Shown here: piece by piece, positions 7,411-32,000 of the stretch | How the letters are laid out: every line of letters begins with the position of its first letter | Position numbering within the stretch: position 1 is the stretch's first letter | Origin: Sedimentisphaera cyanobacteriorum | GTDB taxonomy: Bacteria > Planctomycetota > Phycisphaerae > Sedimentisphaerales > Sedimentisphaeraceae | Direction: 5' to 3' | NCBI RefSeq assembly: GCF_001997385.1 | Contig: NZ_CP019633.1 | Coordinates: 1,620,001 to 1,652,000 of the forward strand | DNA length: 32,000 bases | Made by a program: the position numbers and the translations under genes | Notes under the pieces: model-generated | What the model saw: the letters and a program-made list of their open reading frames with translations, nothing else | Databases searched by the model: none | What the model was told of the DNA's origin: nothing

Positions 7411-7757
7411 AAAAATTTTTGTTTTTGTTCGGTTTTTGTTTGGAAGTTGAGCAAAATCTGCTAAAATGAAAACTGAATGGCCTACTGCTGCCGGCAAAAT
7501 GAGCCGTCAGAGTTAAGTTACGGAAGACTTAATCGGAGGCAAGGAAAATGAGAAAAAAACGCAAAAGCCCTTTATGCAGTTTCGGGCCTGGAGGCGAGTA
7601 CAAAACGGAATACTCGCCGGACCGTTATGATTCGGGAGTAGAACAGAGCTCTGCTTTGAAGGTTCTGTTTGAGAGTTTTTCCTGTGCTTTAGCGGAAAAA
7701 CTGATTTGGACTCTTAACACCGGCCCGCATACAGCAGAACTGCACAATTACTCGAGC

Positions 7758-7770
7758 CCATTTGAAATGG
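7758..7770. promoter_or_regulatory. 13-bp perfect palindrome CCATTTGAAATGG, flanked by direct repeats ACTGCA(C)AATTA; candidate operator upstream of lexA
   Basis: The palindrome is read directly from the sequence, 22-34 nt upstream of the preferred lexA ATG (7792). The flanking repeats lie at 7739-7750 and 7771-7780. A palindrome of this size is expected by chance several times in 32 kb, so only its position is suggestive. Confidence 0.2.
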
Positions 7771-7791
7771 ACTGCAATTATGGGGAGAACA

Positions 7792-8421
7792 ATGCAGCTG
7801 ACACCAGTAAAAATGAATATTCTCGAAATATTCGCAAATTTCCAGCGGGAAAAACATTATTCCCCGACGATGAAGGAACTCGCCGAACTGCTGGGAAAAA
7901 GCAGAACCACAGTGTTCGAACACTGCACCGCCCTTCGAAAAAAGGGGTATCTCTCGGCATCCCGGGGCAAGGTTCGCTCTTTGAAACTCACCGCTAAGGC
8001 AGAAGAACTTTTAGGTGATGATGCCGTAGAGGCAGTCCAGAGCGATAATGAAGGCATCCCAATGCTGGGCAGTGTGGCAGCGGGGTTTCCCGTAGAACCG
8101 CTGGAGTCAGACGAGAAACTGTCTATCCCAGCACAGTTCAGCACTAAAGGAACCCTTTTTGCACTTAAAGTTTCGGGGGAGAGTATGATTGGAGACAATA
8201 TTTTCCCGGGTGATTATGTAATCTGCCGGCATACAAACGAGGCAAAAAACGGCGATATTGTGGTTGCGTTAGTGGATGAGAACGAGGCAACCCTGAAAAG
8301 ATTCTACAAAGACAAAAACTGCATCCGACTTGAGCCGTCTAACGATGAATATGAAACGCTGCGGGTTACCAACTGCCTGATCAAAGGCGTTGTTACAGGG
8401 CTCTTGAGGAATATACACTAA
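7792..8421 (+). CDS. lexA: LexA repressor (S24 peptidase, SOS regulator)
   Basis: The N-terminal winged HTH (MQLTPVKMNILEIF...SPTMKELAELLGKSRTTVFEH) is followed by the Ala-Gly cleavage site (SVAAGFP). The catalytic Ser is in VSGESM and the Lys in ATLKRF. I chose ATG 7792 because GGGGAG lies just upstream. The ORF track's 7762 start is TTG, and another ATG lies at 7780. Confidence 0.9.
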   Translation: MQLTPVKMNILEIFANFQREKHYSPTMKELAELLGKSRTTVFEHCTALRKKGYLSASRGKVRSLKLTAKAEELLGDDAVEAVQSDNEGIPMLGSVAAGFPVEPLESDEKLSIPAQFSTKGTLFALKVSGESMIGDNIFPGDYVICRHTNEAKNGDIVVALVDENEATLKRFYKDKNCIRLEPSNDEYETLRVTNCLIKGVVTGLLRNIH

Positions 8422-19742: not shown

Positions 19743-19769
19743 AAAAAAGCTCCCCCGAAACGAGAGAGC
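19743..19769 (-). terminator. rho-independent terminator closing the LamG/sulfatase gene array
   Basis: The minus-strand RNA reads GCUCUCUCG-UUU-CGGGGGAGC. That is a 9-bp stem including two G-U pairs, followed by U6. On the plus strand the same positions give C-A mismatches, so the hairpin is strand-specific. It lies 31 nt downstream of the stop at 19800. Confidence 0.65.
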
Positions 19770-19799
19770 TTTTTTGTTTTGAAATGTTAATATAAGGCG

Positions 19800-21968
19800 T
19801 TAGTCGAGCTGAGGATAGAGATTGGATTCATTCCAGTCCAGAGCGAACATCGCCAAATCAGCCAGATTGACTTTGCAGTCTCCGTTGAAGTCGTACTTGA
19901 GGCTTTCAGAGTATGGGTCTGTACAGAAATCTTCGCCCATAATATCATAGTACTGCTGGGCAATCTGCTCGTTGGTGAGTGCGTAGTTGTACATCTTGAT
20001 TTCATCGAACACACCAAGCCCCGGATTGCCAAGCTGGCCGTCTGTCTCGCCTACACACATAATATATACGCGCTGCTCAAATTTACTGCGCATAAAGTCG
20101 TCGTTTGTCTGAACGAGCGATCCGTTTACATAAAGCCTGCCCGTCTGGTCTGCATCATTGACAAACGCAACATGCATCCACTCTCCCGGCGTAATGTAGT
20201 AGTCTTGCGGTACTCCCCACTGAACATAACCCGGAGTATTAACGGTTAGCTGTCCATCGGGCTGAATATCGAAGAACCAGTTGTTTTCTCCGCCGTCAGG
20301 ATCCGAGCTGCAAATCAGCCCTGCCAGACCCCCGCTCGGAACAATATCACCAGTCCACTTAACCCAAAGTGAAACAGTCAGCTCTTCGGTATAAGGAGCT
20401 GGAACAATAGGCTCGGTTGCTGCAGCTGCCAAAGGCTCGGGAACAGTGTCAAAGCCCTGCCCTGTCTTTGCCGGGTCAACTCCGTCAACCCACTGCTCGG
20501 GCAGAGGTGCAAGGTTCGGGTCTGCATCAAGGCCTTCGCCTGAAGCATCTGTATAATCTCCGTCGAGAGGCCAGTAGCCAATCATACGCTTAACACCGAG
20601 CATTGCAGAATCTGAGTCTGCGCTTCCCTCTGCATTGCTCGCACGACAGAAGTATTCGCCCTGATCTGCCTTTTCAAGATTAGCTACAGAGAGGCTTGAG
20701 GTGTAGCTGTCCCCGTGCTGGGAAACACCGATAGTTATATCAGCGTCTGAATCGTCAACTATTGTTTCCGGGTCGCCTGCCTTTACCCACTCAACAGAGG
20801 CGGCTGTTTTACTCGTGAAAGCAGCATTGAAAGTGATTTGCTCGCCCGAAAAGTCTGCCTGATCATCGGGCGAATCAGTAATAACAGGTATTGCAGGGAG
20901 AGCCTCGAAATGCCAGATCGGGCCTGCTATATTTTCCTCAGAACCCTCTGCTGCATTGTTTATCTGCTCTTCGACCTGCCAATATACCTCATCACCCAGT
21001 TCAAATGTAAAAGGCACCTGCACAGGATCGCTGCCTGCCGGCACGAATGCGCTGAGCGCCTCAACATTATTGTTGGGGTCTGCGGGGTCGAATGTGGAAT
21101 AGGCTGTAACGAAATGTCCTGTAACATCCGGGTTCGGATTTGCAGGGTCAGCAGGGTCGCCGGCAGTATCAAACTGAAGCGTGGTAACAGCTGCCGGGTC
21201 CACATTAATCTCTCCGTTTGCCGGCACAGGATTTCTCGGCCAAAGGTCGGGATTAACTGCATCTTCGAAAATTTGACCTCTTATAGGCGTTCCGGGAACC
21301 GCTTCCATTGCCACTACATTTGCCTGATCAACAAGTGCTGGAGGGTTGTTGGAATTATTCAGTCCTCCAAACACACCGTAACCGTCTTCAGGATCTGGAA
21401 CCCAGCCCAAAACGCTGACAGTACGGTTGCCTGCAAGGTTTGTAACCTGCACTGAACCGGTAATCGTTTCAGTGTAAAGCCGGCCGTTAATCATCGCTAT
21501 AAGCTCGCCTGTACCGGAATTGAACGAAACAAAGAGCCTGGTTTCAATGTTCGGATAAACCGGTCCGAGAGCCACTGCCACGCCGCCATCTCCGGAGGCA
21601 TCGGTATCATTAAGGCTTTCGACAACAGCATTGCCTCCGCCGCTTCCGTTGGCTCCTTTAGAACCAAACGTGAGCATACCGTCGCAAATGAATATGCCGG
21701 TTCCATAGTTAGACCCGCCTACTTCTGTTACGATTACAGGACCGTCTGTTTTGGTAGTATCCGCTTCAGTGGGCGTAAACTTGGCTGTTAAGGTAATAAG
21801 TCCGGAATCTGCAATTGCTGTCATATCATCTGAGTTCTGCAGCTGACGTTCTGAATAGTCAACAATCGCATCAGCATCATCAAATCCAGGTACAATATCA
21901 CCTGCAAAAGAAGCTGACGCAACTGAGAGACAAACGATTAGTATGAAAAATTTATATATCTTCATCAT
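19800..21968 (-). CDS. secreted multidomain protein, paralog C: conserved N-terminal beta-rich module, FN3-like module, Ig-like module, LamG domain, C-terminal dockerin-like Ca-binding motif
   Basis: 722 aa counted from ATG 21968, which has GGAGAA 6 nt upstream. The track's 21998 start is TTG. The signal peptide is MMKIYKFFILIVCLSVASASFA|GD. The Ig signature is ADQGEYFCRASN. The LamG entry is YWPLDGDYTDASG and its core is LTVSLWVKW...MHVAFV...LYVNG...FDEIKMYNYAL. The C-terminus reads DFNGDCKVNLADLAMFALDW. Confidence 0.8.
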   Translation of the reverse strand: MMKIYKFFILIVCLSVASASFAGDIVPGFDDADAIVDYSERQLQNSDDMTAIADSGLITLTAKFTPTEADTTKTDGPVIVTEVGGSNYGTGIFICDGMLTFGSKGANGSGGGNAVVESLNDTDASGDGGVAVALGPVYPNIETRLFVSFNSGTGELIAMINGRLYTETITGSVQVTNLAGNRTVSVLGWVPDPEDGYGVFGGLNNSNNPPALVDQANVVAMEAVPGTPIRGQIFEDAVNPDLWPRNPVPANGEINVDPAAVTTLQFDTAGDPADPANPNPDVTGHFVTAYSTFDPADPNNNVEALSAFVPAGSDPVQVPFTFELGDEVYWQVEEQINNAAEGSEENIAGPIWHFEALPAIPVITDSPDDQADFSGEQITFNAAFTSKTAASVEWVKAGDPETIVDDSDADITIGVSQHGDSYTSSLSVANLEKADQGEYFCRASNAEGSADSDSAMLGVKRMIGYWPLDGDYTDASGEGLDADPNLAPLPEQWVDGVDPAKTGQGFDTVPEPLAAAATEPIVPAPYTEELTVSLWVKWTGDIVPSGGLAGLICSSDPDGGENNWFFDIQPDGQLTVNTPGYVQWGVPQDYYITPGEWMHVAFVNDADQTGRLYVNGSLVQTNDDFMRSKFEQRVYIMCVGETDGQLGNPGLGVFDEIKMYNYALTNEQIAQQYYDIMGEDFCTDPYSESLKYDFNGDCKVNLADLAMFALDWNESNLYPQLD

Positions 21969-22005
21969 TTTATCTTCTCCATAAAATTTAATTAACAATT
22001 ACCAA

Positions 22006-24150
22006 CTACTCTAATGAGCTCAGATACAACTTATCATTGAGCCAGTCGATAGACAGAGCAGCAAGGTCATCGAAATCAACTGTACAGTCGCCGTTGAAAT
22101 CGTATTTGAGGTTGTCTGCATTCGGCTCAACGCAAATCTGCTCGCCGCTGACATCATAGTAGATACCTGCAATCTCTTCGGGGCTCATGGCATAGTTGTA
22201 GATCCTTACATCATCAAAAACAGCTTCCAGCACATTGTTAAGGTTTTCGCTGTCTTCAAAATCTGATGCGAAGAATATCGGCTTGGACACCTGATTTATG
22301 CTGTATCTTCCGGGTTCTGTAATATCATATTGAGATCCATTTACATAAACCGCTGCCACTTCATCTGCTGATGCTGTAAATGCGATATGAGTCCATTCAT
22401 TCCTTGCTATCTGGTAGAATGGATACGGGCTGTATCCCGGTGCATTTATCAGAATCCAGCCGTCTCTGTTGTCTATCTCGAGGAAGAAGCTGTTTTCGCT
22501 GTCATCCATAGAGCATACAATCTGGCGATAATTCAGAGTTGAGAAGCTGTCCGGCCCAGGCCATTTCAGCCATACAGACACGGTAATCTCATTGGTATAT
22601 TCAGCAACATTCAACGGGTCTGTCTCACCGGCAGATTCACGATTGCCAATAGTGCTGATGGCCTGTCCTGTTTTTGCAGGATCAACGCCGTCAACCCACT
22701 GCTCCGGAACAGGGTCTGCATAAGGGGTTATGTCGTTGCCTTCACCGGAATAATCAATATAGTCTCCGTCGAACGGCCAATATACAACCATACGTTTAAC
22801 AGCCATAGAAACTGATTCTGAATCTGCTGTCCCGAAGTCATTTTCTGCTGTGCAGTAGTAGTAGCCTTCGTCTGCAGCTTCCGGATTAGCTATGCTGAGG
22901 GTTGATGTGTATTCATCACCATTTTGAACAAGGTCAATCGTAACGTCCGGATCGGATTCGAGCAGTTCGGTGTCCGGGTCGCCTTCCTTAAACCAGGCAG
23001 CGCTTGCTGCGGATTTGCTGGTGAAGGTGAATTCGAATACGGCCTGCTGATCAGCAAATACGGCCTCATCCTCAGGCTGAATATCAGCCGCAGGCTTGGG
23101 CGGGAGTGTTTCGAAGCCCCAGAACGGGCCTGTAACATTGCCCGCATCACCTTCAGGTGCTCCGCTGATTTGCTCTTCCACTCTCCAGTAAATTGTCTGC
23201 CCGAGATCAAGCTCAAAAGTTTCTGGAGAATTTACCGTTACCGAAATCGGGTCTGTCCCGGCCGGTACAAATGTTCCGTAAAGCTCAGGAAGGCTGAGAT
23301 TCGGGTCTGCGCCAGTTCCCTCATAGAAAGTAACAAAGTGCCCTGTTACATCAGGGTTCTGTGAGCCGGCATTTTCAGGGTCTTCAGCGGTATTGAAGCT
23401 TACCTCTGAAATAACAGCAGGGTCAATATTCTCTTCATTAACTTGAGGAGAGGGGGTGTTTGCCATAACACTGGGATTAACCGCCTGATTAAAAATCTGA
23501 CCTCTCACAGGTGCGCCTGCTATCCCGCTGAACATCCAAGCATTAGAATCGCTAAGCAGAGGGTTTGTCCCGGCGAGTCCGCCCGTAGAACCTAATCCTG
23601 TATCGCCGAGAAAAGTAACAGCCTGATTACCGGTAAGGTTTGTAGAAGTTGGGGCGTTGTAAAGGTAGTTGATCTTTCTAACTCCGTTCACAGAGCTGAA
23701 TACCATTCCAGTGGTAAGGTCTAATGATGCATAAACTTTATTTTCCTGCCCTTCCAAGGCCTTGCCCATTGCAACGGAAGAAGAACCGTCGCTGCCGTCA
23801 AGGTCGGTCAATTCTCTATCCGAGCTGTTCCCGCTTGTCCTGAGGGCGTAAACAATCTCGCCATTGCAGATATACAGACCGCTTCCAAACTTTGACCCGC
23901 CTGTTTCTATCAGCAAAACTGGGCCTGTTTCTTCTGTTACGTCTAATTCTGCAGGCGTAAATTTGGCGGCAAAGGTTATTTTGCTTGCCGGGTTCAATGA
24001 TGTAATGTCGCTGCCGGTCTCATCGAAAGCAGCTGTATAGTCCACGAGGGCGTCCCCGTCATCAAACCAGGGGACAATTTCACCTGACCATGCCCCGGCA
24101 GCAATAAGAAACACAAATAAAAGGTTTAGAGATTTAATTTTTCTCTTCAT
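22006..24150 (-). CDS. secreted multidomain protein, paralog B: same architecture as 19800-21968
   Basis: 714 aa. A GGAGG Shine-Dalgarno lies 7 nt upstream of the ATG. The signal peptide ends AGAWS|GEIVPW. It shares blocks with paralog C (PEQWVDGVDPAKTGQ, DVTGHFVT, YWRVEEQI...GPFWGFE). The Ig signature is ADEGYYYCTAEN, the LamG region has VRIYNYAMSPEEI, and the C-terminus reads DFNGDCTVDFDDLAALSIDW. Confidence 0.8.
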   Translation of the reverse strand: MKRKIKSLNLLFVFLIAAGAWSGEIVPWFDDGDALVDYTAAFDETGSDITSLNPASKITFAAKFTPAELDVTEETGPVLLIETGGSKFGSGLYICNGEIVYALRTSGNSSDRELTDLDGSDGSSSVAMGKALEGQENKVYASLDLTTGMVFSSVNGVRKINYLYNAPTSTNLTGNQAVTFLGDTGLGSTGGLAGTNPLLSDSNAWMFSGIAGAPVRGQIFNQAVNPSVMANTPSPQVNEENIDPAVISEVSFNTAEDPENAGSQNPDVTGHFVTFYEGTGADPNLSLPELYGTFVPAGTDPISVTVNSPETFELDLGQTIYWRVEEQISGAPEGDAGNVTGPFWGFETLPPKPAADIQPEDEAVFADQQAVFEFTFTSKSAASAAWFKEGDPDTELLESDPDVTIDLVQNGDEYTSTLSIANPEAADEGYYYCTAENDFGTADSESVSMAVKRMVVYWPFDGDYIDYSGEGNDITPYADPVPEQWVDGVDPAKTGQAISTIGNRESAGETDPLNVAEYTNEITVSVWLKWPGPDSFSTLNYRQIVCSMDDSENSFFLEIDNRDGWILINAPGYSPYPFYQIARNEWTHIAFTASADEVAAVYVNGSQYDITEPGRYSINQVSKPIFFASDFEDSENLNNVLEAVFDDVRIYNYAMSPEEIAGIYYDVSGEQICVEPNADNLKYDFNGDCTVDFDDLAALSIDWLNDKLYLSSLE

Positions 24151-24372
24151 TGTAAAACCTCCGTAATAATAAAATATTAAAAAACTAGTATCACACTTTT
24201 ACGGGCGTGATAAACCAACTTGTGGCCGAAACAAACATTTTCTATTCAGCCAAAGGAAAAAAGATAATATCCCATACACATTCCTTTATTGAACTTTAAT
24301 TTTAACAATCTCTTAAACTTCATAACATATAAAAGGTTTAAAGCGATTAATCTTAAAAACCATTACAATTTA

Positions 24373-25788
24373 TTAAATCTGATGGTTGTAGGCATTAAGC
24401 TCAGTCTGAATACCTCTGTCTCCTTGGTCTTGCATCCATTCATCAAGTTTGGTTTTGAGTCTTTTGAAAACCTCTTCATAGCCGGGCTCATCGGCAAGGT
24501 TGTTAATATTTGCAGGATCCTCTTTGATGTTGTACAGCTCGAATTCCGGGCGGTGCTGATATTTATGCGTATATTTCTGTGCGTGCTCATCGCCGGCTGC
24601 GGCTAAATCAAGCATAGACTGAAATTCCGAGCTTGGGTTCTCGGTAGTTACATTTTGAAACTCATTATTTGGCATCAAATTCCAAATCAGCCTGTAGTTT
24701 TCATCCCTCACAGAGCGTATCGGGTATGGCTGCTTGTTTTTGAGTATTCCTGTTGATGTATGTATGCCGAATGTATAGTCTTTATGTTCTTTTGTTTTGC
24801 CGGTGAGCAGGCCGAGCATACTCTTGCCGTCGAGAACCTCGGGAGGATTTCCGCCTGCTGCTTCAATGAAAGTGGGCGTAACATCAACATATTCCACGAT
24901 CGCTTCGCTTATGCTGCCAGCTTCAACTTTCCCCGGCCAGCGGACAATCATAATCGACCCGAGACCGTCTTCATAGCATGTCCATTTGGCAAAGGGAAGA
25001 GCATTGCCCTGCTCAGAAACCACCATTACCATTGTATTATCTGAAAGGCCGTATTCATCAAGCAGATTAAGAAGCTGACCTACCTGATTGTCGAAATAAG
25101 TGATCTCAGCGAGATATTTCGTCATAGACTCCCTAACCACAGGAGTGTCGGGTATATACGGACGAAGCTCAACCTCATCAGCATCGTAAGCGGAAGGGTT
25201 GCCTTTATTCCAAGGAGTATGCGGCTCATTTGAGCATGCAAAGAGGCAGAACGGAGTTTGCGTATCTTTGCATTCTGAGAACAAGCTCTCAACAGCTCCC
25301 ATATCGGGATTCTTGCTGCCGCTGTATTCAAACGGAAAAACTTCATCCGGCGCAATGTGGGTTTTGCCTGAAAGAGCAACCCTATACCCCAGCGGCTTAA
25401 GATAATGAACGATGCTTTTAGTGCCTTCTTTTGCGAAAGCGTGGTTGGGATACGCCCCGCTCTTCACGGGATAAAGGCCTGTGTAGATATTATGTCTTGT
25501 GGGCGAGCACATCGGGGCAGCCTGAAAGCAGTTTGTAAATTTCATACCTTCAGGAACAAGCTTATCGATGTTGGGGGTATGAGCCTGACCGCCATAGCAG
25601 CCGATATCCCTGTAGGTGCAGTCGTCTGCCATTATAAAGAGGAAGTTAGGCTTATCACTGCCCGTATTGCTAATCTTCTTATTCAGCTTGAAATTTTCAG
25701 ATGCAAAAATGGACTCTGCCATACTGCTCGACTGAACAGCGGAAAATGCTGCAACGCCGGCTAATTTAATAAAATTTCTTCTTTCCAC
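24373..25788 (-). CDS. formylglycine-dependent sulfatase (arylsulfatase A family) with twin-arginine signal
   Basis: 471 aa with a GTG start. The Tat motif is ERRNFIKLAGVAAFS. PNFLFIMADDCTYRDIGCYGG is present. The active-site motif is CSPTRHNIYTG (C-x-P-x-R). Confidence 0.9.
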   Translation of the reverse strand: MERRNFIKLAGVAAFSAVQSSSMAESIFASENFKLNKKISNTGSDKPNFLFIMADDCTYRDIGCYGGQAHTPNIDKLVPEGMKFTNCFQAAPMCSPTRHNIYTGLYPVKSGAYPNHAFAKEGTKSIVHYLKPLGYRVALSGKTHIAPDEVFPFEYSGSKNPDMGAVESLFSECKDTQTPFCLFACSNEPHTPWNKGNPSAYDADEVELRPYIPDTPVVRESMTKYLAEITYFDNQVGQLLNLLDEYGLSDNTMVMVVSEQGNALPFAKWTCYEDGLGSIMIVRWPGKVEAGSISEAIVEYVDVTPTFIEAAGGNPPEVLDGKSMLGLLTGKTKEHKDYTFGIHTSTGILKNKQPYPIRSVRDENYRLIWNLMPNNEFQNVTTENPSSEFQSMLDLAAAGDEHAQKYTHKYQHRPEFELYNIKEDPANINNLADEPGYEEVFKRLKTKLDEWMQDQGDRGIQTELNAYNHQI

Positions 25789-25821
25789 TTTTAATTCCTG
25801 TAAAAAAACACGGTTTCATAT

Positions 25822-27244
25822 TTAGTATATGTGATTCTGGTTTTTTGCGGCCTTAAAGGCTTGCATTGTATCTATTGGAGCCCCGGGGTCGTTCTCCTGA
25901 GCCATCCATTTATCGAGCCTGTCGCTTAATTTATTCTTTATTTCGGCGTATTTAGGGTTATCAGCGAGGTTGTTCATTTCGTAAGGGTCTTCTGCTGTAT
26001 GATAAAGCTGCTCGGGCGGTCTTCGGGTAAACCTTTCTACCAACTCATACACGTCTTTTTGATTATAAGAACGCTTGACCCATGAATGCCAGAAGTCTGA
26101 ACCACCCATCACGTGTTTTTCAATGTAGATCCTATCCGGGCAGAGGTTTCGTATGTATCTATACTGCCCGTCAAAGACTGTCCGGATAGGGTACTGCGGT
26201 CCTTCGGGTACGTTATTGTGTATGCCGAACACGTAATCACGGTGTTTATGGGTATTGCCTTTAATCACGTCGAGAAAGCTTTTCCCGTCGAATTCAAACT
26301 GCTCCGGATCCCCGCCGGCAAGTTCAACAACCGTCGGCAGGAAATCGCAGTACTGAACTAAGGCATCCGTGCGTTTATTCACAGGCGAAATCCCGGGCCA
26401 GCGGGCAATCAATGCTGTATGCAGGCCGGTATCCCAATTTGTCCATTTATTTCCGGGAAACTTCGAGCCCTGCTCGGATGTGAAAAGCACAAGGGTGTTA
26501 TCCGCCTTTCCGGACTGCTCAAGGGCTTGTAAAATATCGCCTACCTGCGAATCCATATAGGTAATTTCTGCAAGATAGTCTGAAAAATTCTCGCGTGTTT
26601 CCTGAGTGTCTGCCATATTTGGAGGCAGCTTGAGCTGATTCGCCGGATATCTGCTTGCATCCCCCATAACCCAAGGCGCATGCGGCTCAACAAGGCACAC
26701 AGCAAGATAGAACGGGGCAGAATCATCTTCCATATACTGCCTGATGTATTGCGTATCGTGCGGGCTGGGTGGGGTTTCTCACACACTTTGAATCAAAGCC
26801 GTCCAAGTAGTCAAACGGGAATTCAGATTTCGGCCTTAAATGCCTCTTGCCAGTGAGCCCTGCCCTGTATCCCAGATTACTGAGATAATCAGGCGTGCTT
26901 TTAATGTCGTTTCTGCATTTGGAATGATTCCAGCTTGCCCCGTTGCTTATTGGGTGAAGCCCTGTCTGCAATTCCGAGCGGCAAGGCAGACACATAGCCT
27001 CTGAGAGGTAGGCTTTGTTGAAAACAAGCCCTTCAGATGCAAGCTGATTTATATTTGGTGTATAGGCGTTCCGGCCTCTGTAGAGGGGCAGGTCGCTGAA
27101 AGTACAGTCGTCTGCCATTATCACAAGCACGTTTGGTCGAGATGAATTCGTCTCGTTTGAGAAAGAATAATCCGCTGAGACATCCGGGAGCATCGAAGAA
27201 AATGCTGCAAAGCCTGCTAATTTTATAAAATTTCTTCTCTTCAT
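25822..27244 (-). pseudogene. sulfatase split by a +1 frameshift (N-terminal ORF 26723-27244, C-terminal ORF 25822-26733)
   Basis: The N-terminal part has MKRRNFIKLAGFAAFS, NVLVIMADDCTF and CLPCRSELQTG. The C-terminal part continues in the +1 frame (YIRQYMEDDSAPFYLAVCLVEPHAPW...). Both parts are colinear with the intact paralog at 24373-25788. The shift must fall within 26726-26778, which contains C-runs (AAACCCCACCCAGCCCG). Confidence 0.75.
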
Positions 27245-27268
27245 TTAATCAGCTCTGTTTAACAAATC

Positions 27269-29941
27269 TCACCGCTTAAAGTTTTCCTGCCACAAAATGG
27301 CTATTTGATTGAAATCATTAATATCTATAGCACCATCTGAAAGCGGGTCTTTGGGGCATAACGCCGGCGAAACCGGCTGCATAACAAGCTGGTAGGTACC
27401 GCCATAGACATACACAACTTCCTCGTGGCTCAGGCTTTTGTTGTAAATCCTGAATTCATCTATTTTCGCCTGAAGGAAGTGGCCTTCTCCTGAAGCGGAA
27501 GAACCTATACTGGAACCACCAGCCATTTGATAATCAGCAGAGGTAAGCGAGGTTTTGCCTTGAGATACTAAAACCCCGTCCTTATAAATCTTAGTTAATT
27601 CTCCAGCTTTATTCGTAATGCAGAGATGATGCCAGCCGGCCTGAACATCGGGATTAACGGGAAACTCATACTCTGCCTCGCTCTCAAGCTCTGTACTTGA
27701 GGCAGCGTTTAAGAATTCAATGGAATTTCTTGTTTCCCATACATCCGGCTGATCCAAAAACCAGAAACTGATTGTGAATCCATGGTTTACTGAATCAAAA
27801 ACGCCCTCAGGAAGGCTTATTCCGAAGCTTCCGTCCAGCTCTATACATCCGCCTTCAGCACCGGACGAATCCCAGACAGAGTCCGGATTATCCGCTTCTA
27901 CAGCTGCATCGTACGAATTGCCCGAATTGTCATGAGCAACGTCCCCGCTGGTTTCGTCGAATGGATAGTAAACCACCAGCCCATCGGGCTCTTGTGATGC
28001 AGCAAAAATCCAGTGGCTCTGCAAAAGCCAGTTTTCCGCTAAAAGCTGCAGGTCCTGAAGGTTTATAAGGCAGTCGCCATTGATATCGGCAGGCTGATTG
28101 CTGTTTTCAATGCAGCGTTTGATGTCCAGAGCTATAGAGTCTATTGAAATCACGCCTGCAGCGGGCTGAGAAGGAGAATTCTCAAGGCCGAATTCCAAAG
28201 AAGCAATTTCAGAAATATCAACGCCCCCGCTTGAGAATTCTTCAAGCTTAATCCTTACCCGAGACGCAGCAGGATAAATCAAATCTTCCTGCAAGTATGC
28301 CTTTCTGCTGTTTCCTGCGGAATCTTCCAATTCAACATAGAAATCTGAAGGCTGATTGTCAGGGTTTCCTCTTAAATAAAATTCTAAAATCTCAGTCCCG
28401 CTGGCAGAGAAATCTTTAGGGTTGTTGAAAATTCTTTTAACTTCCGACTTTTCTGTACCGCTTTGATTCTGATAGCTGATTTTCAAGGATTTTCCGTATG
28501 CGGGAAGGCCAAGTTCAATCGAGGAACCTGTGGAATTTGACGAGCCGTCCTGCCAATCAGCAAGCAGCTGAGTATCTGTGGAGTATTGGTCGAAATCCTC
28601 AATCATTCTCGGATTGTCGCAGGAAAGCTCCAGCACCTCACTGCCGGCCTGCACATCTGGCTGCGAGGGGACATAACAGTCAACTCGGCAATAGTATTGC
28701 TCGCCAACATACATTCCAGCTGTATCAACCTGCCAGGAAGTTTCGCTGATGCCCGTAACGGATGATACAATCTGATTGAAGCCTTCATCTGAGGCTATAA
28801 GAACATCGTAAAGGACTTCTGGATAGAGCTGTGGGAGAAGGTCATCCGGCCTTTCCCAGCTGAGAGATACAGAAGGCAGAATCCCGCTTGCGCTTAAATT
28901 CTTCGGTGAAGCGTCAAGTGGAGCGGTAGTTATAGACCATACCTGCCCTTCCCACGGACTTTCAGCGTAATTTGAATTTATCGCTTCGACTTTCCAGTGA
29001 TACGTTGTCTGCTCATCGAGGAAAAGCTGGTTTTCAGCGAGGTCAAGTTCAAAACGTCCCTGCAAATCAGGTCCGGAAATCTGAGGCTGCGAAATCAGCG
29101 TGCCAAAGTGGTTAGACTCCTGAGCATTCATAACGTCCTGATACGATGTGCCGAAATATACGTTGTAACTGCTGGCATACATCCCGCCTGCCCAAGACAG
29201 CGCAGGCAGTGAAACCGGTACAACAGCTTCGCTTTCAGGAGAAGGATTGCAGGCCTCAGGAGGGCTTACAGCCTGATCGAAAATCTGCCCTCTAACAGGC
29301 GCGCCTTGAACGCCCTGAAAAATCTGACGGTTTTTCTGATTAAGCAGAGGTTCTGTATAGTTGTCATTCAAGCCGCCCATATGGATAGAGAGCTGATTCT
29401 TGCCCAGAAATGCCGCGGTTCGATTGCCGGTAAGGTCTGTTGACTGCGGGGCATTGAGAAGGTATTTAACCTGCCTCTGGCCATTTACAGAAGAAAATAC
29501 CATACCCTTCTGAAGGTTTAGGGACACGTAAACCTTATTCTCCTGATTCGCATCCAGCTCACCCAGCACTACTGAGAGAGCCCCGTCAACATTGTCCAAA
29601 TCCATCAATTCACGAACCGGAGCATCGCCCCCAGTTCTAACGGCATAAACCAGCTGACCGCCGCAGATATACAGGCCGCTGCCGTGCAAAACGCCGCCTA
29701 CCTCAATTATAACTACCGGGCCGGTCTGCTCGCCCAAATCCGCCTGAGAAGGAGTGAATTTCGCAGCGAAAGTAATCTCGCTTTCAGGATCAAGCTCTGG
29801 AACATCATTAGAAGAGCCGTCTTTGGCTGCGGTATAGTCAACCAGAGCTTCTGAATCATTAAGCCAAGGGACAATCTCCCCCGCCCAAGCAGGAACAAAG
29901 GAAAAACTTATGAAAACTAAAAGATAAACGAATTTTAACAT
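27269..29941 (-). CDS. secreted multidomain protein, paralog A: conserved N-terminal module, two FN3-like modules, CBM-like beta-sandwich, internal dockerin-like motif, LamG domain, second dockerin-like motif
   Basis: 890 aa counted from ATG 29941. The track's 29962 start is GTG. The signal peptide is MLKFVYLLVFISFSFVPAWA|GEIVPW. The N-terminal roughly 200 aa closely parallel 22006-24150. FN3-like signatures are YHWKVEAI...GQVWSITT and SVSLSWERP...YYCRVD. The CBM-like pattern is IEDFDQY...LADW...LEFYLRG...ISIDSIAL. Dockerin-like motifs are DINGDCLINLQDLQLLAENW and DGAIDINDFNQIAILW. The LamG region has YYPFDETSGDVAHDNSG...IDEFRIYNKSLS. Confidence 0.8.
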   Translation of the reverse strand: MLKFVYLLVFISFSFVPAWAGEIVPWLNDSEALVDYTAAKDGSSNDVPELDPESEITFAAKFTPSQADLGEQTGPVVIIEVGGVLHGSGLYICGGQLVYAVRTGGDAPVRELMDLDNVDGALSVVLGELDANQENKVYVSLNLQKGMVFSSVNGQRQVKYLLNAPQSTDLTGNRTAAFLGKNQLSIHMGGLNDNYTEPLLNQKNRQIFQGVQGAPVRGQIFDQAVSPPEACNPSPESEAVVPVSLPALSWAGGMYASSYNVYFGTSYQDVMNAQESNHFGTLISQPQISGPDLQGRFELDLAENQLFLDEQTTYHWKVEAINSNYAESPWEGQVWSITTAPLDASPKNLSASGILPSVSLSWERPDDLLPQLYPEVLYDVLIASDEGFNQIVSSVTGISETSWQVDTAGMYVGEQYYCRVDCYVPSQPDVQAGSEVLELSCDNPRMIEDFDQYSTDTQLLADWQDGSSNSTGSSIELGLPAYGKSLKISYQNQSGTEKSEVKRIFNNPKDFSASGTEILEFYLRGNPDNQPSDFYVELEDSAGNSRKAYLQEDLIYPAASRVRIKLEEFSSGGVDISEIASLEFGLENSPSQPAAGVISIDSIALDIKRCIENSNQPADINGDCLINLQDLQLLAENWLLQSHWIFAASQEPDGLVVYYPFDETSGDVAHDNSGNSYDAAVEADNPDSVWDSSGAEGGCIELDGSFGISLPEGVFDSVNHGFTISFWFLDQPDVWETRNSIEFLNAASSTELESEAEYEFPVNPDVQAGWHHLCITNKAGELTKIYKDGVLVSQGKTSLTSADYQMAGGSSIGSSASGEGHFLQAKIDEFRIYNKSLSHEEVVYVYGGTYQLVMQPVSPALCPKDPLSDGAIDINDFNQIAILWQENFKR

Positions 29942-29976
29942 AGCTAAATCTCTTAAAAACACAAAAATACCAAAAT

Positions 29977-31689
29977 TTATTCGATCGGTTCAAAGTGAAG
30001 CTTCGGATTTACGAAGAGCGGCATTGCCAAACCGGCGTTGCCCTTGCCCTTGCCGACCGGAACAAAGGAGCAGATCGTAAGGAAACGGTCGTTCGGGTTT
30101 AGTTTTATATCAAAATCTACCGGCTTATCTACCGGCGTTTGATTATTCACCTCAAATCGAAGCTTGCCGTCCACTATAACCTGCATATCGCATACAATCG
30201 AAGAGAAGCTGGATTTGTCAGCCCATTTTTCAGGTTTCTCGAATATTTGATCATTAAAAATGCTGTCTGAAAGGCCGAATCTCGCAGTAAACCTGGATAT
30301 ACGAGAATACGGCGCAATTTCTCTAATCTTTTTAAGGTCAAAGGTAACACCCTGCTCGGGGTGCAAATATATAGCGGAGGTCTGCGGGTATGTTTGCCTG
30401 ACGCCTTTCAGAGTCATCACATGAGGCAAAACAGGGCCTACCCGCGGATGAAAGGCCCCGTTTATTACCCCTGTCCTGTACTTTACGTTAGTGTCGGGAA
30501 GTCCGTTGGATTTATGACCCTTGCTGGACACCTTAACAGGCCCCTTGCCTCCGTCCGGCATAAAGACACCATCGATAAGGGGAAGGGAATCCACTGTCTG
30601 ATAATCAGAGTACTCATGGAAAACTAATTCAAAGTCTTTTATATTATCCGAATATTTTCCTTTTATCGTCATTAATCCGCTTTTGTATTTGCCTGTTCCA
30701 AGGCCGTTTCCCCCGCCTACCATATCCGCAAGGTCAAGGGTTTTCTGCCCTCTCCAAACAGCCTTGAATTGAGATTCTATAGAGCGTGCAAATTTGTCGG
30801 TTTCCGAGTTTATCTCTACCGCATCGGAGTTTCCGCCTGAGATTCCGAGAGCTTTTCCCTTTGTCAGCTCTTTTTTAGTCTTTTTAAGCCAGGAATTACC
30901 GCTTATAAAGGCTGCCTTGCCCTTTATCATGTGCGCTTCAGTCCAGCCTTTTTTGTCTTTATAAATTCCGAATTCAGTACCGAGGTCTATAAGGCGCATA
31001 TTATCGGAATGAACGGTAAATCCGATTCCCTGTTCGCCTACGTTTGCATAAATGCTGCCGAAATTCAGCTGTATATCGCTCTGCTTGGTAAGTTCAAACT
31101 CTGCAGGAGCCTCAATCGTTATATGGACATCGCTGGGCGTTTTAAGCTCAAGGAAGCCCTCGGAAAGTTCTACCTTTTTATTCGCCCAGATTATATCACC
31201 GCTTGAGAGAGCGGCTGATGAATCGGAAAATTCTGCGTTTAATGAATCCTCAACATAACCCGCCTTAATCGACTGATCAGTTCTTTGTGCAAATGTAAGA
31301 ATCAATGCAATCGCAATCATTGCAGCAACAGAAACCGCAAATGCTGCCACTGAAGACTTGCTGTAATGCCGCTTGGGGATATCGTAGTGCACATCTTCAA
31401 TAAGACATGGCTGCTTCTTCTCATGCCTGCATTTTCTAATTGCAGGCGCACGCTTTTCAGCTTCGATAATTTTCTTGGCAAGCTCATCGTCTATGTTTGG
31501 AACAGAAGAGATGTTTACTTCTTTGAGGGTCCCGTAAACATTTATATATTTTTTGTAGAGTGCTCTGGCCTCAGGACTTTTTCTTAATAGCTCCTGAACT
31601 GAATCGAATTCCTCTCTGCTCGCAGTTCCTTCCAGGAGCTTTAATACTTTAAGGCCGAACTGTTTTTTTTCATTCTTAGAATTAAACAT
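29977..31689 (-). CDS. FecR-type transmembrane anti-sigma factor with a large extra C-terminal (possibly NPCBM-like) domain
   Basis: 570 aa. The ATG directly abuts the sigma-factor TAA. An N-terminal helical anti-sigma region precedes a single TM helix (VAAFAVSVAAMIAIALILTFA). The FecR-like region reads IWANKKVELSEGFLELKTPSDVHITIEAPAEFEL...FTVHSDNMRLIDLGTEFGI. A further 280 aa or so follow. Confidence 0.75.
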   Translation of the reverse strand: MFNSKNEKKQFGLKVLKLLEGTASREEFDSVQELLRKSPEARALYKKYINVYGTLKEVNISSVPNIDDELAKKIIEAEKRAPAIRKCRHEKKQPCLIEDVHYDIPKRHYSKSSVAAFAVSVAAMIAIALILTFAQRTDQSIKAGYVEDSLNAEFSDSSAALSSGDIIWANKKVELSEGFLELKTPSDVHITIEAPAEFELTKQSDIQLNFGSIYANVGEQGIGFTVHSDNMRLIDLGTEFGIYKDKKGWTEAHMIKGKAAFISGNSWLKKTKKELTKGKALGISGGNSDAVEINSETDKFARSIESQFKAVWRGQKTLDLADMVGGGNGLGTGKYKSGLMTIKGKYSDNIKDFELVFHEYSDYQTVDSLPLIDGVFMPDGGKGPVKVSSKGHKSNGLPDTNVKYRTGVINGAFHPRVGPVLPHVMTLKGVRQTYPQTSAIYLHPEQGVTFDLKKIREIAPYSRISRFTARFGLSDSIFNDQIFEKPEKWADKSSFSSIVCDMQVIVDGKLRFEVNNQTPVDKPVDFDIKLNPNDRFLTICSFVPVGKGKGNAGLAMPLFVNPKLHFEPIE

Positions 31690-32000
31690 TTACATCTTCC
31701 TCTCGATACAGCTCAGCAAAACAAGATGTATATTGTTCAGTCTTCGGTAAATGGTATGTATGCTTTTGTCGTAAAAGGTTGCGATTTTCTTTACTGTCCA
31801 TCCCTTTTGATATCTCATTTCTATTATTTGGGCAAAGCCGTACTGGAGCTGGTCTATACATTCTTTAAGTATTCCGTTTATCCTTACTAATTCAGGGCTG
31901 TCCTGCTCTCCGCTAAGCAGCTCTAATATATCATCATCAAAAACCATTTTCGATTCCCTGCTCTTCCTTATAAACTGAAGGGCCTTGTATTTTGCTGTTA
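31690..32000 (-). CDS. ECF-type sigma-70 family RNA polymerase sigma factor (partial; N-terminus lies beyond the window end)
   Basis: The reading frame stays open to position 32000 (…TAKYKALQFIRKSRESKMVFDD…). The region-4 HTH reads QIIEMRYQKGWTVKKIATFYDKSIHTIYRRL. It is immediately followed by the anti-sigma gene. Confidence 0.8.
   Translation of the reverse strand, partial: TAKYKALQFIRKSRESKMVFDDDILELLSGEQDSPELVRINGILKECIDQLQYGFAQIIEMRYQKGWTVKKIATFYDKSIHTIYRRLNNIHLVLLSCIERKM

What the first reader, a model, noticed from the sequence alone, without database searches (positions are those of the whole stretch)
19743..32000. ECF sigma / FecR anti-sigma-led 12-kb one-strand cluster: three paralogous secreted LamG/Ig/dockerin-like proteins plus two sulfatases
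Every gene from the partial ECF sigma gene down to 19800 is on the minus strand. The gaps between them are 0, 35, 24, 33, 222 and 37 nt. The array ends at a strand-specific intrinsic terminator (19743-19769).

The cluster encodes an ECF sigma and a FecR-type anti-sigma with an extra C-terminal domain. It also encodes three signal-peptide paralogs (890, 714 and 722 aa) and two Tat-signal formylglycine-type sulfatases, one of them frameshifted. I see no glycoside hydrolase, lyase, TonB-dependent receptor or SusD-like gene. So this is neither a FecIRA iron system nor a Bacteroidota-style PUL.

The LamG paralogs are the only candidate effector or ligand-capture components. The cluster could be a PVC-type sensing and surface-capture module for sulfated glycans, and the paralog family appears uncharacterised. 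The functional model is inference.
Basis: partly seen in the sequence, partly recalled or inferred. Interest (0 to 1): 0.7.

Follow-up and report, generated by a model that had tools for sequence, protein, structure and literature searches.

The report
Sigma/anti-sigma-led glycan-binding and sulfatase cluster
This is a real seven-gene cluster in an anaerobic planctomycete: a membrane sensor pair sits in front of three sugar-binding-type secreted proteins and two sulfate-removing enzymes, and the same sensor-plus-binder "front end" recurs in related bacteria ahead of different sugar-degrading enzymes.

Summary
The window is Sedimentisphaera cyanobacteriorum (Phycisphaerae).

Three things are new:
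- The anti-sigma's "extra C-terminal domain" belongs to a family in which 27 of 40 members match Pfam NPCBM/NEW2, a carbohydrate-binding module.
- The paralogs carry a second lectin domain at the N-terminus. It has no Pfam match and a ConA/LamG-like fold. The domain is rare, and stand-alone versions end in PEP-CTERM surface anchors.
- The cluster is fully syntenic in S. salicampi, and the sigma, anti-sigma, paralogs, sulfatase order recurs at about 35% identity in distant Sedimentisphaerales MAGs.

In six loci chosen through the anti-sigma alone, the sigma gene is always directly upstream. A LamG protein follows in five of them. The enzymes vary: sulfatase, GH43, GH2, GH92, GH78, GH106 or pectinases.

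So this is one instance of a lineage-wide PUL-like design without SusC/SusD or a TonB-dependent transducer. Regulation, ligand and the role of the paralogs remain inferred. I found no shared promoter motif, and a conserved hairpin with a U-run may split the array into two transcripts. I rate it a new variant of a known kind, of moderate interest.

The parts
31690..32000 (-). ECF sigma factor gene, 3' part only (102 codons, region 4). The window cuts off the 5' end.
   Evidence: One search gives the translation. One search gives sub-threshold Sigma70_r4 and ECF matches; the fragment matches TIGR02989 positions 60-158 at 57 bits. The full 170-aa S. salicampi orthologue is 94% identical and scores 131.1 bits against a cut-off of 124.55.
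29977..31689 (-). FecR-type single-pass anti-sigma factor, 570 aa. It has a cytoplasmic N-terminal part, one transmembrane helix at about residues 113-134, a periplasmic FecR domain (residues 197-259) with an invariant D-L-G-T-E-F motif, a Gly-rich conserved linker, and a C-terminal NPCBM/NEW2-like module at about residues 430-570.
   Evidence: FecR 22.6 bits; 148 homologues, many annotated PF04773 plus PF08305; 39 of 40 match FecR and 27 of 40 match NPCBM; the family profile hits the PDB 7js4 NPCBM-type region at E = 3.3e-6 and RsiW weakly at the N-terminus; invariant columns; hydropathy peak at 113-134. The start codon abuts the sigma stop codon (gap 0).
27269..29941 (-). Paralog A, 890 aa. 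In order: signal peptide, N-terminal ConA/LamG-like domain, an unassigned insert of about 430 aa that contains an internal dockerin/EF-hand-like loop, Laminin_G_3, and a C-terminal Ca-loop-like tail.
   Evidence: The internal loop scores 21.2 bits against Dockerin_1. The structure model of the insert failed (pLDDT 36). The S. salicampi orthologue is 76% identical.
25822..27244 (-). Tat-signal, Cys-type (CLPCR) S1 sulfatase, split into 173-aa and 303-aa ORFs by one extra C at 26762-26764. It is a pseudogene or a homopolymer sequencing error.
   Evidence: Sulfatase plus SGSH_C; 87-90% identity to the intact 473-aa S. salicampi orthologue, and a single-base insertion; the nearest solved structure of that intact orthologue is S1_8A sulfatase 9bb9, E = 3e-43.
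24373..25788 (-). Tat-signal, Cys-type (CSPTR) S1 sulfatase, 471 aa, intact. It is about 42% identical to the intact S. salicampi orthologue of the split sulfatase, its paralogue in the cluster.
   Evidence: Sulfatase 124 bits, SGSH_C 80.7 bits; nearest PDB entries are S1_8A 9bb9 (5e-39) and human SGSH 4mhx..
24189..24212 (-). Hairpin followed by a U-run inside the 222-nt gap, about 25 nt upstream of the paralog B start codon. It is a terminator- or attenuator-like element and is conserved in S. salicampi with base changes that keep the pairing.
   Evidence: terminator-like site; the gaps of the two species align and this block is conserved.: -9.6 kcal/mol, z = -1.8, which is modest.
22006..24150 (-). 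Paralog B, 714 aa. In order: signal peptide, N-terminal ConA/LamG-like domain (residues 23-235), an FN3-like spacer of about 115 aa, Ig I-set, Laminin_G_3, and a C-terminal D-x-N-x-D-C-x-V Ca-loop tail.
   Evidence: 100% match to an S. cyanobacteriorum protein; N-domain model with pLDDT 83 and lectin-fold matches.
19800..21968 (-). Paralog C, 722 aa, with the same architecture as B and about 42% identity to it.
   Evidence: 90% identical to the S. salicampi orthologue.
19743..19769 (-). Intrinsic terminator that closes the array. It is flanked by an A-run and a T-run, and it is stronger on the minus strand.
   Evidence: -21.2 kcal/mol and z = -6.0 on the minus strand, -14.4 kcal/mol on the plus strand. 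A sigma-70-like promoter for the next gene follows at 19646-19617.

Best explanation
The region is a polysaccharide-utilisation-type gene cluster of the anaerobic planctomycete Sedimentisphaera cyanobacteriorum.

**Shown by sequence and comparison:**
- an ECF sigma factor of the TIGR02989 family, with its gene abutting the anti-sigma gene;
- a single-pass FecR-type anti-sigma factor whose periplasmic end is an NPCBM/NEW2-like carbohydrate-binding module;
- three secreted paralogs with no detectable catalytic domain, each built from two ConA/LamG-type lectin domains held apart by FN3/Ig spacers and ending in one EF-hand/dockerin-like Ca-loop;
- two Tat-exported, Cys-type S1 sulfatases nearest to subfamily S1_8, one of them broken by a +1 frameshift.

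**Inferred mechanism:**
1. An oligosaccharide that reaches the periplasm binds the anti-sigma's NPCBM-like module directly. No TonB-dependent transducer is involved.
2. As in FecR-type systems, this makes the anti-sigma a substrate for regulated proteolysis and frees the sigma factor.
3. The sigma factor then raises transcription of its own cluster.
4. The LamG proteins bind and hold the glycan at the envelope. They would be functional analogues of the surface glycan-binding proteins of Bacteroidota PULs.
5. The sulfatases strip sulfate esters from chain ends or released sugars. The S1_8 resemblance suggests 2-O- or N-linked sulfate. Glycosidases encoded elsewhere then continue the breakdown.

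The sigma/anti-sigma/LamG trio is a reusable front end across Sedimentisphaerales. The enzyme cargo differs from cluster to cluster.
For: **Identity and anatomy.**
- establish the genes and the source organism.
- The sigma orthologue passes the TIGR02989 cut-off.
- Anti-sigma family: 39 of 40 members match FecR and 27 of 40 match NPCBM. The family profile hits an NPCBM-type region of PDB 7js4 at E = 3.3e-6. There is one hydrophobic helix at residues 113-134.
- An invariant D-L-G-T-E-F motif lies within the FecR match. FecR and FoxR self-cleave at a Gly-Thr bond and are then processed by Prc and RseP (PMC9249621).

**Paralogs.**
- The N-domain model has pLDDT 83. Its top matches are CBM40, laminin G, neurexin LNS and BoNT Hc.
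- Stand-alone forms of this domain end in PEP-CTERM anchors, so the domain family is displayed outside the cytoplasmic membrane.

**Sulfatases.**
- Pfam Sulfatase plus SGSH_C match.
- The nearest structures are S1_8A and SGSH. S1_8 enzymes are exo-acting 2-O-sulfohydrolases in the lambda-carrageenan cascade (PMC12549532).

**Conservation.**
- Full synteny in S. salicampi, with sigma as the first gene after a divergent ClpP gene, at 76-94% identity.
- The same order in MAG loci L001 and L002 at about 25-38% identity.
- In six loci picked through the anti-sigma alone (L013, L014, L015, L017, L018, L019), the sigma gene is always immediately upstream. LamG_3 proteins lie immediately or one gene downstream in five of the six. 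Cargo genes vary between loci.
- A second S. salicampi cluster reads sigma, anti-sigma, pseudopilin, two Ig-LamG proteins, GH43, GH2.
Against: - No expression, binding or enzyme data exist.
- The window's own anti-sigma C-terminal part gets no Pfam hit even at E = 10. Its FecR score is just under threshold. NPCBM identity therefore rests on homologues about 32% identical over the full length.
- No common -35/-10 word pair was found upstream of 13 related sigma genes beyond what shuffles give. The conserved block in the 222-nt gap does not resemble the sequence upstream of the S. salicampi sigma gene. Sigma-dependence of the downstream genes is therefore unsupported.
- A conserved hairpin plus U-run upstream of paralog B may end one transcript. 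In that case paralogs B and C could be under other control.
- The cluster has no glycosidase, so the sulfatases alone cannot make a glycan usable.
- Ig-LamG relatives also occur without a nearby sigma/anti-sigma pair (L003, L007, L010).
- About 430 residues of paralog A remain unassigned.
Confidence: 0.55

Rival explanations
1. The LamG/Ig paralogs are not only regulated cargo. They are the signal-input partners of the anti-sigma, taking the place of FecA or SusC. They would bind polymer outside or at the outer membrane and contact the anti-sigma's C-terminal module by protein-protein interaction. On this reading the NPCBM-like domain is a docking domain, not a sugar sensor.
For: - A LamG-type protein sits directly after the anti-sigma, or after one pseudopilin gene, in nearly all loci, whatever the enzymes are.
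- In FecR-type systems the C-terminal periplasmic domain binds a partner protein's signalling domain (PMC9249621).
- The anti-sigma (79%) and paralog A (76%) are the fastest-diverging pair between the two Sedimentisphaera species, which would fit co-evolution.
- The conserved C-terminal Ca-loop tail has no assigned partner.
Against: - No interaction has been tested.
- Locus L015 has PKD and PA14/CBM6 proteins instead of LamG.
- Ig-LamG relatives occur without the pair.
- The number of LamG genes per cluster varies from one to three, which is unlike a fixed 1:1 transducer.
- Adjacency is equally well explained by co-regulation.
Confidence: 0.2
2. The paralogs are the missing depolymerases. They would be a new glycoside-hydrolase or lyase family built on the ConA-like jelly-roll, as GH16, GH7, PL7 and the 3-keto-disaccharide hydrolases are. 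The cluster would then be enzymatically self-sufficient for a sulfated glycan.
For: - The cluster has sulfatases but no recognisable GH or PL.
- Each paralog has two ConA-like domains.
- Several acidic residues are invariant in the N-domain (D30, D31, E82, D116, D121 of paralog B).
- About 430 residues of paralog A are unassigned.
Against: - All top structural matches of the N-domain are non-catalytic lectin or LamG modules, and TM-scores are only about 0.45-0.58.
- No Pfam or NCBIfam enzyme model matches.
- In other clusters the same kind of protein sits beside ordinary GH43, GH2, GH78 and GH106 genes, so it is not replacing them.
- Stand-alone N-domains carry PEP-CTERM anchors, which is typical of surface binders.
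- The invariant acidic residues fit a LamG-type Ca2+ site equally well.
Confidence: 0.12
3. The cluster is not a nutrient-glycan system. The LamG/Ig proteins would be adhesins or envelope-matrix proteins, and the sigma/anti-sigma pair an envelope-stress or attachment switch. The sulfatases would remodel the cell's own sulfated exopolymer or scavenge sulfate.
For: - LamG and Ig domains are common in adhesins.
- There is a weak NCBIfam similarity to the TafC fimbrial protein (33 bits against a cut-off of 410).
- Pseudopilin genes and a T2SS/pilus-type cluster lie next to related loci.
Against: - Related clusters carry catabolic GH and PL genes, including GH92, GH125, GH43, GH2, GH28, GH88, GH78 and GH106.
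- The anti-sigma family carries a carbohydrate-binding module.
Confidence: 0.08

Closest known systems
FecI/FecR/FecA-type cell-surface signalling (E. coli Fec, Pseudomonas Fox/Fpv)
   Same: An ECF sigma gene is directly followed by a single-pass anti-sigma with a periplasmic FecR domain. An invariant Gly-Thr lies inside that domain. The likely output is release of the sigma factor by regulated proteolysis.
   Different: There is no TonB-dependent transducer and no iron-transport gene here or in any related locus. The C-terminal partner-binding part is replaced by an NPCBM-like carbohydrate-binding module. The sigma belongs to the planctomycete/verrucomicrobial TIGR02989 family. Its relation to the FecI-like ECF groups was not tested.
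Bacteroidota PULs regulated by ECF sigma/anti-sigma pairs (ECF240, former ECF10, with SusC/SusD)
   Same: A sigma/anti-sigma pair heads a one-strand cluster that combines non-catalytic glycan-binding proteins with variable degradative enzymes. Many paralogous copies per genome carry different cargo.
   Different: There is no SusC-like transporter or transducer and no SusD. The binders are LamG/Ig proteins with a signal peptide and a Ca-loop or PEP-CTERM tail, not lipoproteins. The sensor domain sits on the anti-sigma itself. A pseudopilin (N_methyl) gene is often included.
NPCBM/NEW2 (CBM51-type) modules of clostridial and other glycosidases
   Same: The C-terminal ~120 profile positions of the anti-sigma family align with this module (Pfam PF08305 in 27 of 40 members; PDB 7js4 at E = 3.3e-6).
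   Different: Here the module is fused to a transmembrane anti-sigma factor, not to an enzyme. The window's own copy is too diverged to match Pfam. No ligand is known.
S1_8 formylglycine sulfatases (Pseudoalteromonas S1_8A/B/C of the lambda-carrageenan cascade; human SGSH)
   Same: They share the Sulfatase plus SGSH_C architecture, a Cys-type C-x-P-x-R motif and the best PDB similarity (E = 5e-39 to 3e-43).
   Different: Similarity is at superfamily or subfamily distance, and no SulfAtlas assignment was made. The substrate is unknown. Export is by the Tat pathway in a strict anaerobe. No partner GH110, GH2 or GH150 gene is in the cluster.
Cellulosomal dockerin type I
   Same: The C-terminal D-x-N-x-D-x-x-V-x-x-x-D loop plus helix resembles one Ca-binding repeat of a dockerin.
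   Different: Only one repeat is present per site, with Cys where dockerins have Gly. All scores are below the Pfam cut-off. No cohesin is known in these organisms.

Membership tests
ECF sigma factor, TIGR02989 (Rhodopirellula/Verrucomicrobium family) | Whole-protein score at or above the NCBIfam curated cut-off of 124.55 bits | tested here: met
   the S. salicampi orthologue scores 131.1 bits and is 94% identical to the window fragment. The fragment alone covers model positions 60-158 at 57 bits, so it cannot pass by itself.
FecR-type anti-sigma factor | Pfam FecR (PF04773) domain at or above the gathering score | tested here: inconclusive
   the window copy scores 22.6 bits against a 24-bit cut-off; 39 of 40 full-length homologues match at E <= 1e-3.
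FecR-type anti-sigma factor | Single transmembrane helix between a cytoplasmic anti-sigma domain and a periplasmic sensor part, with the gene directly after an ECF sigma gene | tested here: met
   one hydropathy peak at residues 113-134; gap of 0 nt to the sigma gene; only weak similarity to the N-terminal anti-sigma domain (RsiW, E = 0.042).
FecIRA cell-surface signalling system | A cognate TonB-dependent outer-membrane transducer with an N-terminal signalling domain | tested here: not met
   there is no TonB-dependent receptor domain anywhere in the 32-kb window; none in eight annotated related loci.
Bacteroidota-type PUL | An adjacent SusC-like and SusD-like gene pair | tested here: not met
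   no SusC or SusD family hit in the window or in related loci.
NPCBM/NEW2 carbohydrate-binding module (PF08305) | Sequence match to the Pfam model, or to solved members | tested here: inconclusive
   the window copy has no hit at E <= 10; 27 of 40 family members match; the family profile matches PDB 7js4 at E = 3.3e-6 over profile positions 443-559. Sugar binding was not tested.
S1 formylglycine-dependent sulfatase | Sulfatase Pfam domain plus a C/S-x-P-x-R maturation motif | tested here: met
   124 bits for the intact gene, and 62 and 70 bits for the two halves of the split gene; the motifs CSPTR and CLPCR are read directly.
SulfAtlas subfamily S1_8 | Assignment by the SulfAtlas subfamily HMM or phylogeny | not testable with these tools
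   Only the nearest solved structures are known: S1_8A 9bb9 and SGSH 4mhx.
Tat-exported protein | Twin-arginine motif (S/T)-R-R-x-F-L-K before a hydrophobic stretch | tested here: met
   MKRRNFIKLAGFAAF and MERRNFIKLAGVAAF. The sulfatase of locus L001 also hits Pfam TAT_signal, below its cut-off (20.3 bits against 22.7).
LamG / ConA-like lectin domain (PF13385 Laminin_G_3) | Pfam match above the gathering score; for the N-terminal domain, a fold match | tested here: met
   53.2, 66.2 and 68.9 bits against 27.6; the N-domain model has pLDDT 83, and Foldseek gives probability 1.00 to CBM40 and laminin G, but TM-scores are only 0.45-0.58.
Dockerin type I (PF00404) | Duplicated Ca-binding repeat that matches the Pfam model above 22.9 bits | tested here: not met
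   the best score is 21.2 bits (paralog A, internal). The C-terminal tails score 14.7 bits or nothing. There is a single loop per site.
Intrinsic terminator | Stable GC-containing hairpin followed by a U-run, more stable than shuffles | tested here: met
   -21.2 kcal/mol, z = -6.0, and 0 of 200 shuffles fold as well.

The most novel reading that the evidence does not exclude
Anaerobic Phycisphaerae (Sedimentisphaerales) use a previously undescribed, TonB-independent glycan-sensing architecture. A FecR-type anti-sigma factor binds oligosaccharide directly through its own NPCBM-like module. It is genetically locked to LamG/Ig binding proteins, and often to a pseudopilin, which together replace SusC/SusD. 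This would be the planctomycete counterpart of the Bacteroidota PUL, and this cluster would be its sulfatase-loaded version.
Probability: 0.35. Interest if true: 0.7.

Novelty: new variant of a known kind. Interest (0 to 1): 0.55.

Why it matters
Planctomycetes degrade a wide range of marine and sediment polysaccharides, yet they lack the SusC/SusD machinery. It is still unclear how they sense and organise glycan use. This analysis defines a recurrent module that can be recognised from sequence: a TIGR02989 sigma, a FecR-NPCBM anti-sigma and LamG/Ig proteins. That gives three practical handles:
- a way to delimit PUL-like loci in these genomes;
- a candidate direct glycan sensor that could be expressed and screened;
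- a rare lectin-type domain family to test for ligands.

The cultured host, S. cyanobacteriorum from a cyanobacterial mat, makes induction experiments with sulfated exopolymers feasible.

Tried and rejected
- **Exact look-ups.** Paralog B, P0002, P0022 and P0077 were not on record. The source genome beyond the window could therefore not be read.
- **Genome scan.** The 12-sequence version worked but did not return the Sedimentisphaera genomes themselves.
- **Paralog A insert.** Pfam at E <= 10 gave nothing on the anti-sigma C-terminal part, the N-domain or the spacer, and only noise-level hits on the paralog A insert. A homologue search with part of the insert found nothing. Its AlphaFold model from two sequences was unusable (pLDDT 36). 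Those ~430 residues stay unassigned.
- **Rfam.** No hit in the whole window.
- **Promoter search.** I enumerated -35/-10-like word pairs upstream of 13 related sigma genes. Only AT-rich words appeared, at the level of shuffles. The idea of a shared ECF promoter upstream of sigma and in the 222-nt gap is therefore unsupported, not disproved.
- **Literature.** Searches for FecR with NPCBM, anti-sigma/LamG/sulfatase in Phycisphaerae, and TIGR02989 found no description of this module. The paper I recall as the Sedimentisphaera species and genome description (DOI 10.1111/1462-2920.14253) is not held, so prior mention there cannot be excluded.
- **Rejected readings.** FecIRA iron system and Bacteroidota PUL are rejected because their defining genes are absent. 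True dockerin is rejected because the motif is below threshold and is a single repeat.

Full report
**1. Source and context**

Paralog B is 100% identical to a protein of Sedimentisphaera cyanobacteriorum, on a 2.95-Mb contig. The anti-sigma is also 100% identical to a protein of that organism. The rest of the window encodes housekeeping genes of an anaerobe:
- an [FeFe]-hydrogenase-like protein;
- a hybrid histidine kinase and a response regulator;
- DprA, LexA and IspG;
- RNase G, PTS EI, HPr and EIIA;
- a ribosome hibernation factor and DUF502.

Every gene from 9509 to 32000 is on the minus strand.

**2. Checking the observation**

ORF coordinates, sizes and gaps match the finding once the ATG starts are used for paralogs A and C. 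The S. salicampi orthologues are 888, 714 and 722 aa, which agrees with those starts.

Pfam gives the following:

| Protein | Match |
|---|---|
| Sigma fragment | sigma region 4 / ECF, below threshold |
| Anti-sigma | FecR, 22.6 bits (cut-off 24) |
| Paralogs A, B, C | Laminin_G_3 |
| Paralogs B, C only | Ig I-set |
| Both sulfatases | Sulfatase, plus SGSH_C (in the C-terminal half of the split gene) |

- Both sulfatases begin with an RRNFIKLAG twin-arginine motif and carry C-x-P-x-R.
- The split sulfatase aligns at 87% and 90% identity to the two halves of an intact 473-aa S. salicampi gene.
- The lesion is one extra C in a C-run at 26762-26764. It could be a true pseudogene or a homopolymer read error.
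- The terminator at 19743-19769 folds at -21.2 kcal/mol (z = -6.0) on the minus strand and at -14.4 kcal/mol on the plus strand. A sigma-70-like promoter for the next gene follows it.
- No GH, PL, TonB-dependent receptor or SusD model matches any ORF.

**3. The anti-sigma factor**

A homologue search returned 148 proteins. Nearly all come from Sedimentisphaerales, Anaerohalosphaeraceae and other Phycisphaerae, are about 550-585 aa long and align over the full length. Many are annotated FecR plus NPCBM/NEW2.

- Scanning 40 of them individually, 39 match FecR and 27 match NPCBM.
- A profile of the family matches the NPCBM-type region of PDB 7js4 (E = 3.3e-6) with its last ~120 positions. Its N-terminus weakly matches the anti-sigma domain of RsiW.
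- There is one hydrophobic helix, at residues 113-134.
- Invariant residues include D235, G237, T238, E239 and F240, inside the FecR match. FecR and FoxR self-cleave at a Gly-Thr bond and are then cut by Prc and RseP (PMC9249621). I did not test whether the positions are equivalent.
- The window's own C-terminal part is too diverged for Pfam.

**4. The paralogs**

The three proteins share three regions:
- an N-terminal region of about 210 aa that has no Pfam hit;
- a Laminin_G_3 domain;
- a C-terminal D-F-N-G-D-C-x-V...D...W tail.

B and C also share a spacer of about 115 aa and an Ig domain. A instead has an unassigned insert of about 430 aa.

- The N-domain model is confident (pLDDT 83, pTM 0.86). 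It matches CBM40 sialic-acid-binding modules, laminin G, neurexin LNS and the botulinum toxin Hc lectin subdomain. This is a ConA/LamG-type jelly roll, so each paralog carries two lectin-type domains.
- A profile of the N-domain found only 103 representative clusters among 1.84 billion, 26 of them at E <= 1e-30.
- Those hits fall into three forms: ~720-aa full-length proteins, ~390-aa proteins with the same Ca-loop tail, and ~250-270-aa stand-alone proteins ending in VPEP...RRR PEP-CTERM motifs. The domain is therefore displayed beyond the cytoplasmic membrane.
- The tail is only dockerin-like. Scores are 21.2 bits or lower against a 22.9 cut-off, and each site has one loop.

**5. The sulfatases**

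- The window's intact sulfatase is about 42% identical to the intact S. salicampi orthologue of the split one.
- Their nearest solved structures are S1_8A from Pseudoalteromonas and human SGSH.
- S1_8 enzymes act as exo 2-O-sulfohydrolases in the lambda-carrageenan cascade, and S1_8A acts on the monosaccharide (PMC12549532).
- This is a resemblance only. Subfamily assignment was not possible with these tools.

**6. Conservation of the neighbourhood**

S. salicampi has the same seven genes in the same order. Sigma is the first gene after a divergently transcribed ClpP gene. Protein identities are in the table.

| Protein | Identity to S. salicampi orthologue |
|---|---|
| Sigma (fragment) | 94% |
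| Anti-sigma | 79% |
| Paralog A | 76% |
| Sulfatases | 87-90% |
| Paralog B | 88.5% |
| Paralog C | 90% |

- A genome scan with the paralog alignment gave 11 loci.
- By tblastn, L001 and L002 (Sedimentisphaerales MAGs) read: sigma, anti-sigma, one or two full-length paralogs (two in L001), an N-domain protein, a further protein that is LamG-like only in L001, then a Tat sulfatase with SGSH_C.
- L004, L006, L009 and L011 read sigma (not detected in L011), anti-sigma, Ig-LamG protein.
- L003, L007 and L010 have Ig-LamG relatives with no sigma/anti-sigma pair within the DNA held for them.

Loci chosen through the anti-sigma alone give an unbiased view. In all six the sigma gene abuts or overlaps the anti-sigma start.

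| Locus | Genes after the anti-sigma | Enzyme genes nearby |
|---|---|---|
| L013 | pseudopilin, three LamG proteins | GH92 and GH125 upstream |
| L014 | pseudopilin, sulfatase, Ig-LamG, two unknowns, PEP-CTERM proteins | (the sulfatase) |
| L015 | pseudopilin, PKD protein, PA14/CBM6 protein | GH28/GH88, pectate lyase, GH43 |
| L017 | LamG protein, pseudopilin | GH78, GH43 |
| L018 | LamG protein | GH106 |
| L019 | two Ig-LamG proteins, then LamG fused to a GH-like domain | (the fusion) |

A second S. salicampi cluster has sigma, anti-sigma, pseudopilin, two Ig-LamG proteins, GH43 and GH2. It lies next to a divergent T2SS/pilus-type cluster.

The constant part is therefore sigma, anti-sigma and LamG-type binders. 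The enzymes are interchangeable.

**7. Transcription units**

Most gaps are short enough for co-transcription. The 222-nt gap is different.
- It contains a hairpin plus U-run at 24189-24212, about 25 nt before the paralog B start codon.
- This block is conserved in S. salicampi, with changes that keep the pairing.
- Its stability is modest (-9.6 kcal/mol, z = -1.8).
- Rfam finds nothing in the window.
- A search for a shared bipartite promoter word upstream of 13 related sigma genes gave nothing above shuffles.

Whether the array is one sigma-dependent operon is open.

**8. Interpretation**

The best-supported reading is a PUL-like cluster. An NPCBM-bearing FecR-type anti-sigma senses a periplasmic glycan fragment and releases a TIGR02989 ECF sigma. 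The cluster supplies non-catalytic LamG/Ig binders and S1_8-like exo-sulfatases.

- Shown: the anatomy and the conservation.
- Inferred: ligand binding, proteolytic activation, sigma-dependence and the binder role.

Three rivals remain:
- the paralogs act as signalling partners of the anti-sigma;
- the paralogs are novel ConA-fold enzymes;
- the system is an adhesion or envelope system unrelated to nutrient glycans.

**9. Novelty**

The components are known kinds: an ECF sigma, a FecR-type anti-sigma, LamG domains and S1 sulfatases. The combination is not described in any paper I could search. That combination is:
- a FecR anti-sigma fused to an NPCBM-like module;
- tight linkage to LamG/Ig proteins;
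- no TonB-dependent partner;
- reuse in front of varied CAZyme sets.

The paper I recall as the Sedimentisphaera genome description is not held. I rate the finding a new variant of a known kind, with interest 0.55.

Noticed in passing
window 24189-24212 (minus strand), within the 222-nt gap 24151-24372: A hairpin plus U-run lies about 25 nt upstream of the paralog B start codon. It is conserved in S. salicampi with pairing-preserving changes. It could be a terminator between two transcription units, an attenuator, or a 5'-UTR element. A second conserved block (AAAGGAATGTGTATG..ATATTA) lies further upstream in the same gap.
   Followed up: partly
window 9509-12097 (minus strand): An 862-aa ORF with no Pfam family at E <= 0.001 sits among housekeeping genes, next to the HAD-type and SIS/CBS genes.
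   Followed up: no
L013, L014, L015, L016, L017 (gene after or near the anti-sigma); L016:1-9099: A prepilin-type N_methyl (pseudopilin-like) gene follows the anti-sigma directly in four of the eight Pfam-annotated related loci and lies one gene further on in a fifth. It is absent from the window cluster. In S. salicampi a whole T2SS/pilus-type gene set (secretin, PilM, T2SSF, T2SSE, pseudopilins) lies divergently next to a second sigma/anti-sigma/Ig-LamG/GH43/GH2 cluster.
   Followed up: partly
proteins P0144, P0149, P0157, P0161, P0164: Stand-alone versions of the paralog N-terminal domain (250-270 aa) end in PEP-CTERM sorting motifs. The ~390-aa versions (P0143, P0145) end in the same D-L-N-x-D-C-x-V-D-L Ca-loop tail as the paralogs. 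This suggests the tail may be an alternative C-terminal anchoring or sorting signal.
   Followed up: partly
window 26762-26764: The sulfatase frameshift is a single extra C in a short C-run, the kind of indel long-read assemblies produce. The 'pseudogene' may be an assembly error.
   Followed up: partly
window 289-1710 and 2114-6299 (plus strand): An [FeFe]-hydrogenase large-subunit-like gene with several 4Fe-4S domains is followed by a 1007-aa hybrid response-regulator/PAS/histidine-kinase gene. That gene overlaps a second receiver-HisKA gene.
   Followed up: no
window 7548-7997 versus 7762-8421 (plus strand): A 149-aa ORF with no Pfam hit overlaps the start of the LexA-like gene in another frame. 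It is probably a spurious ORF, or the LexA start lies downstream of the listed TTG.
   Followed up: no
L002:4772-7000: Between two sigma/anti-sigma modules of this MAG lies a 742-aa FAD-dependent oxidoreductase fused to a Golvesin C-terminal domain. This is unusual cargo for a glycan cluster.
   Followed up: no
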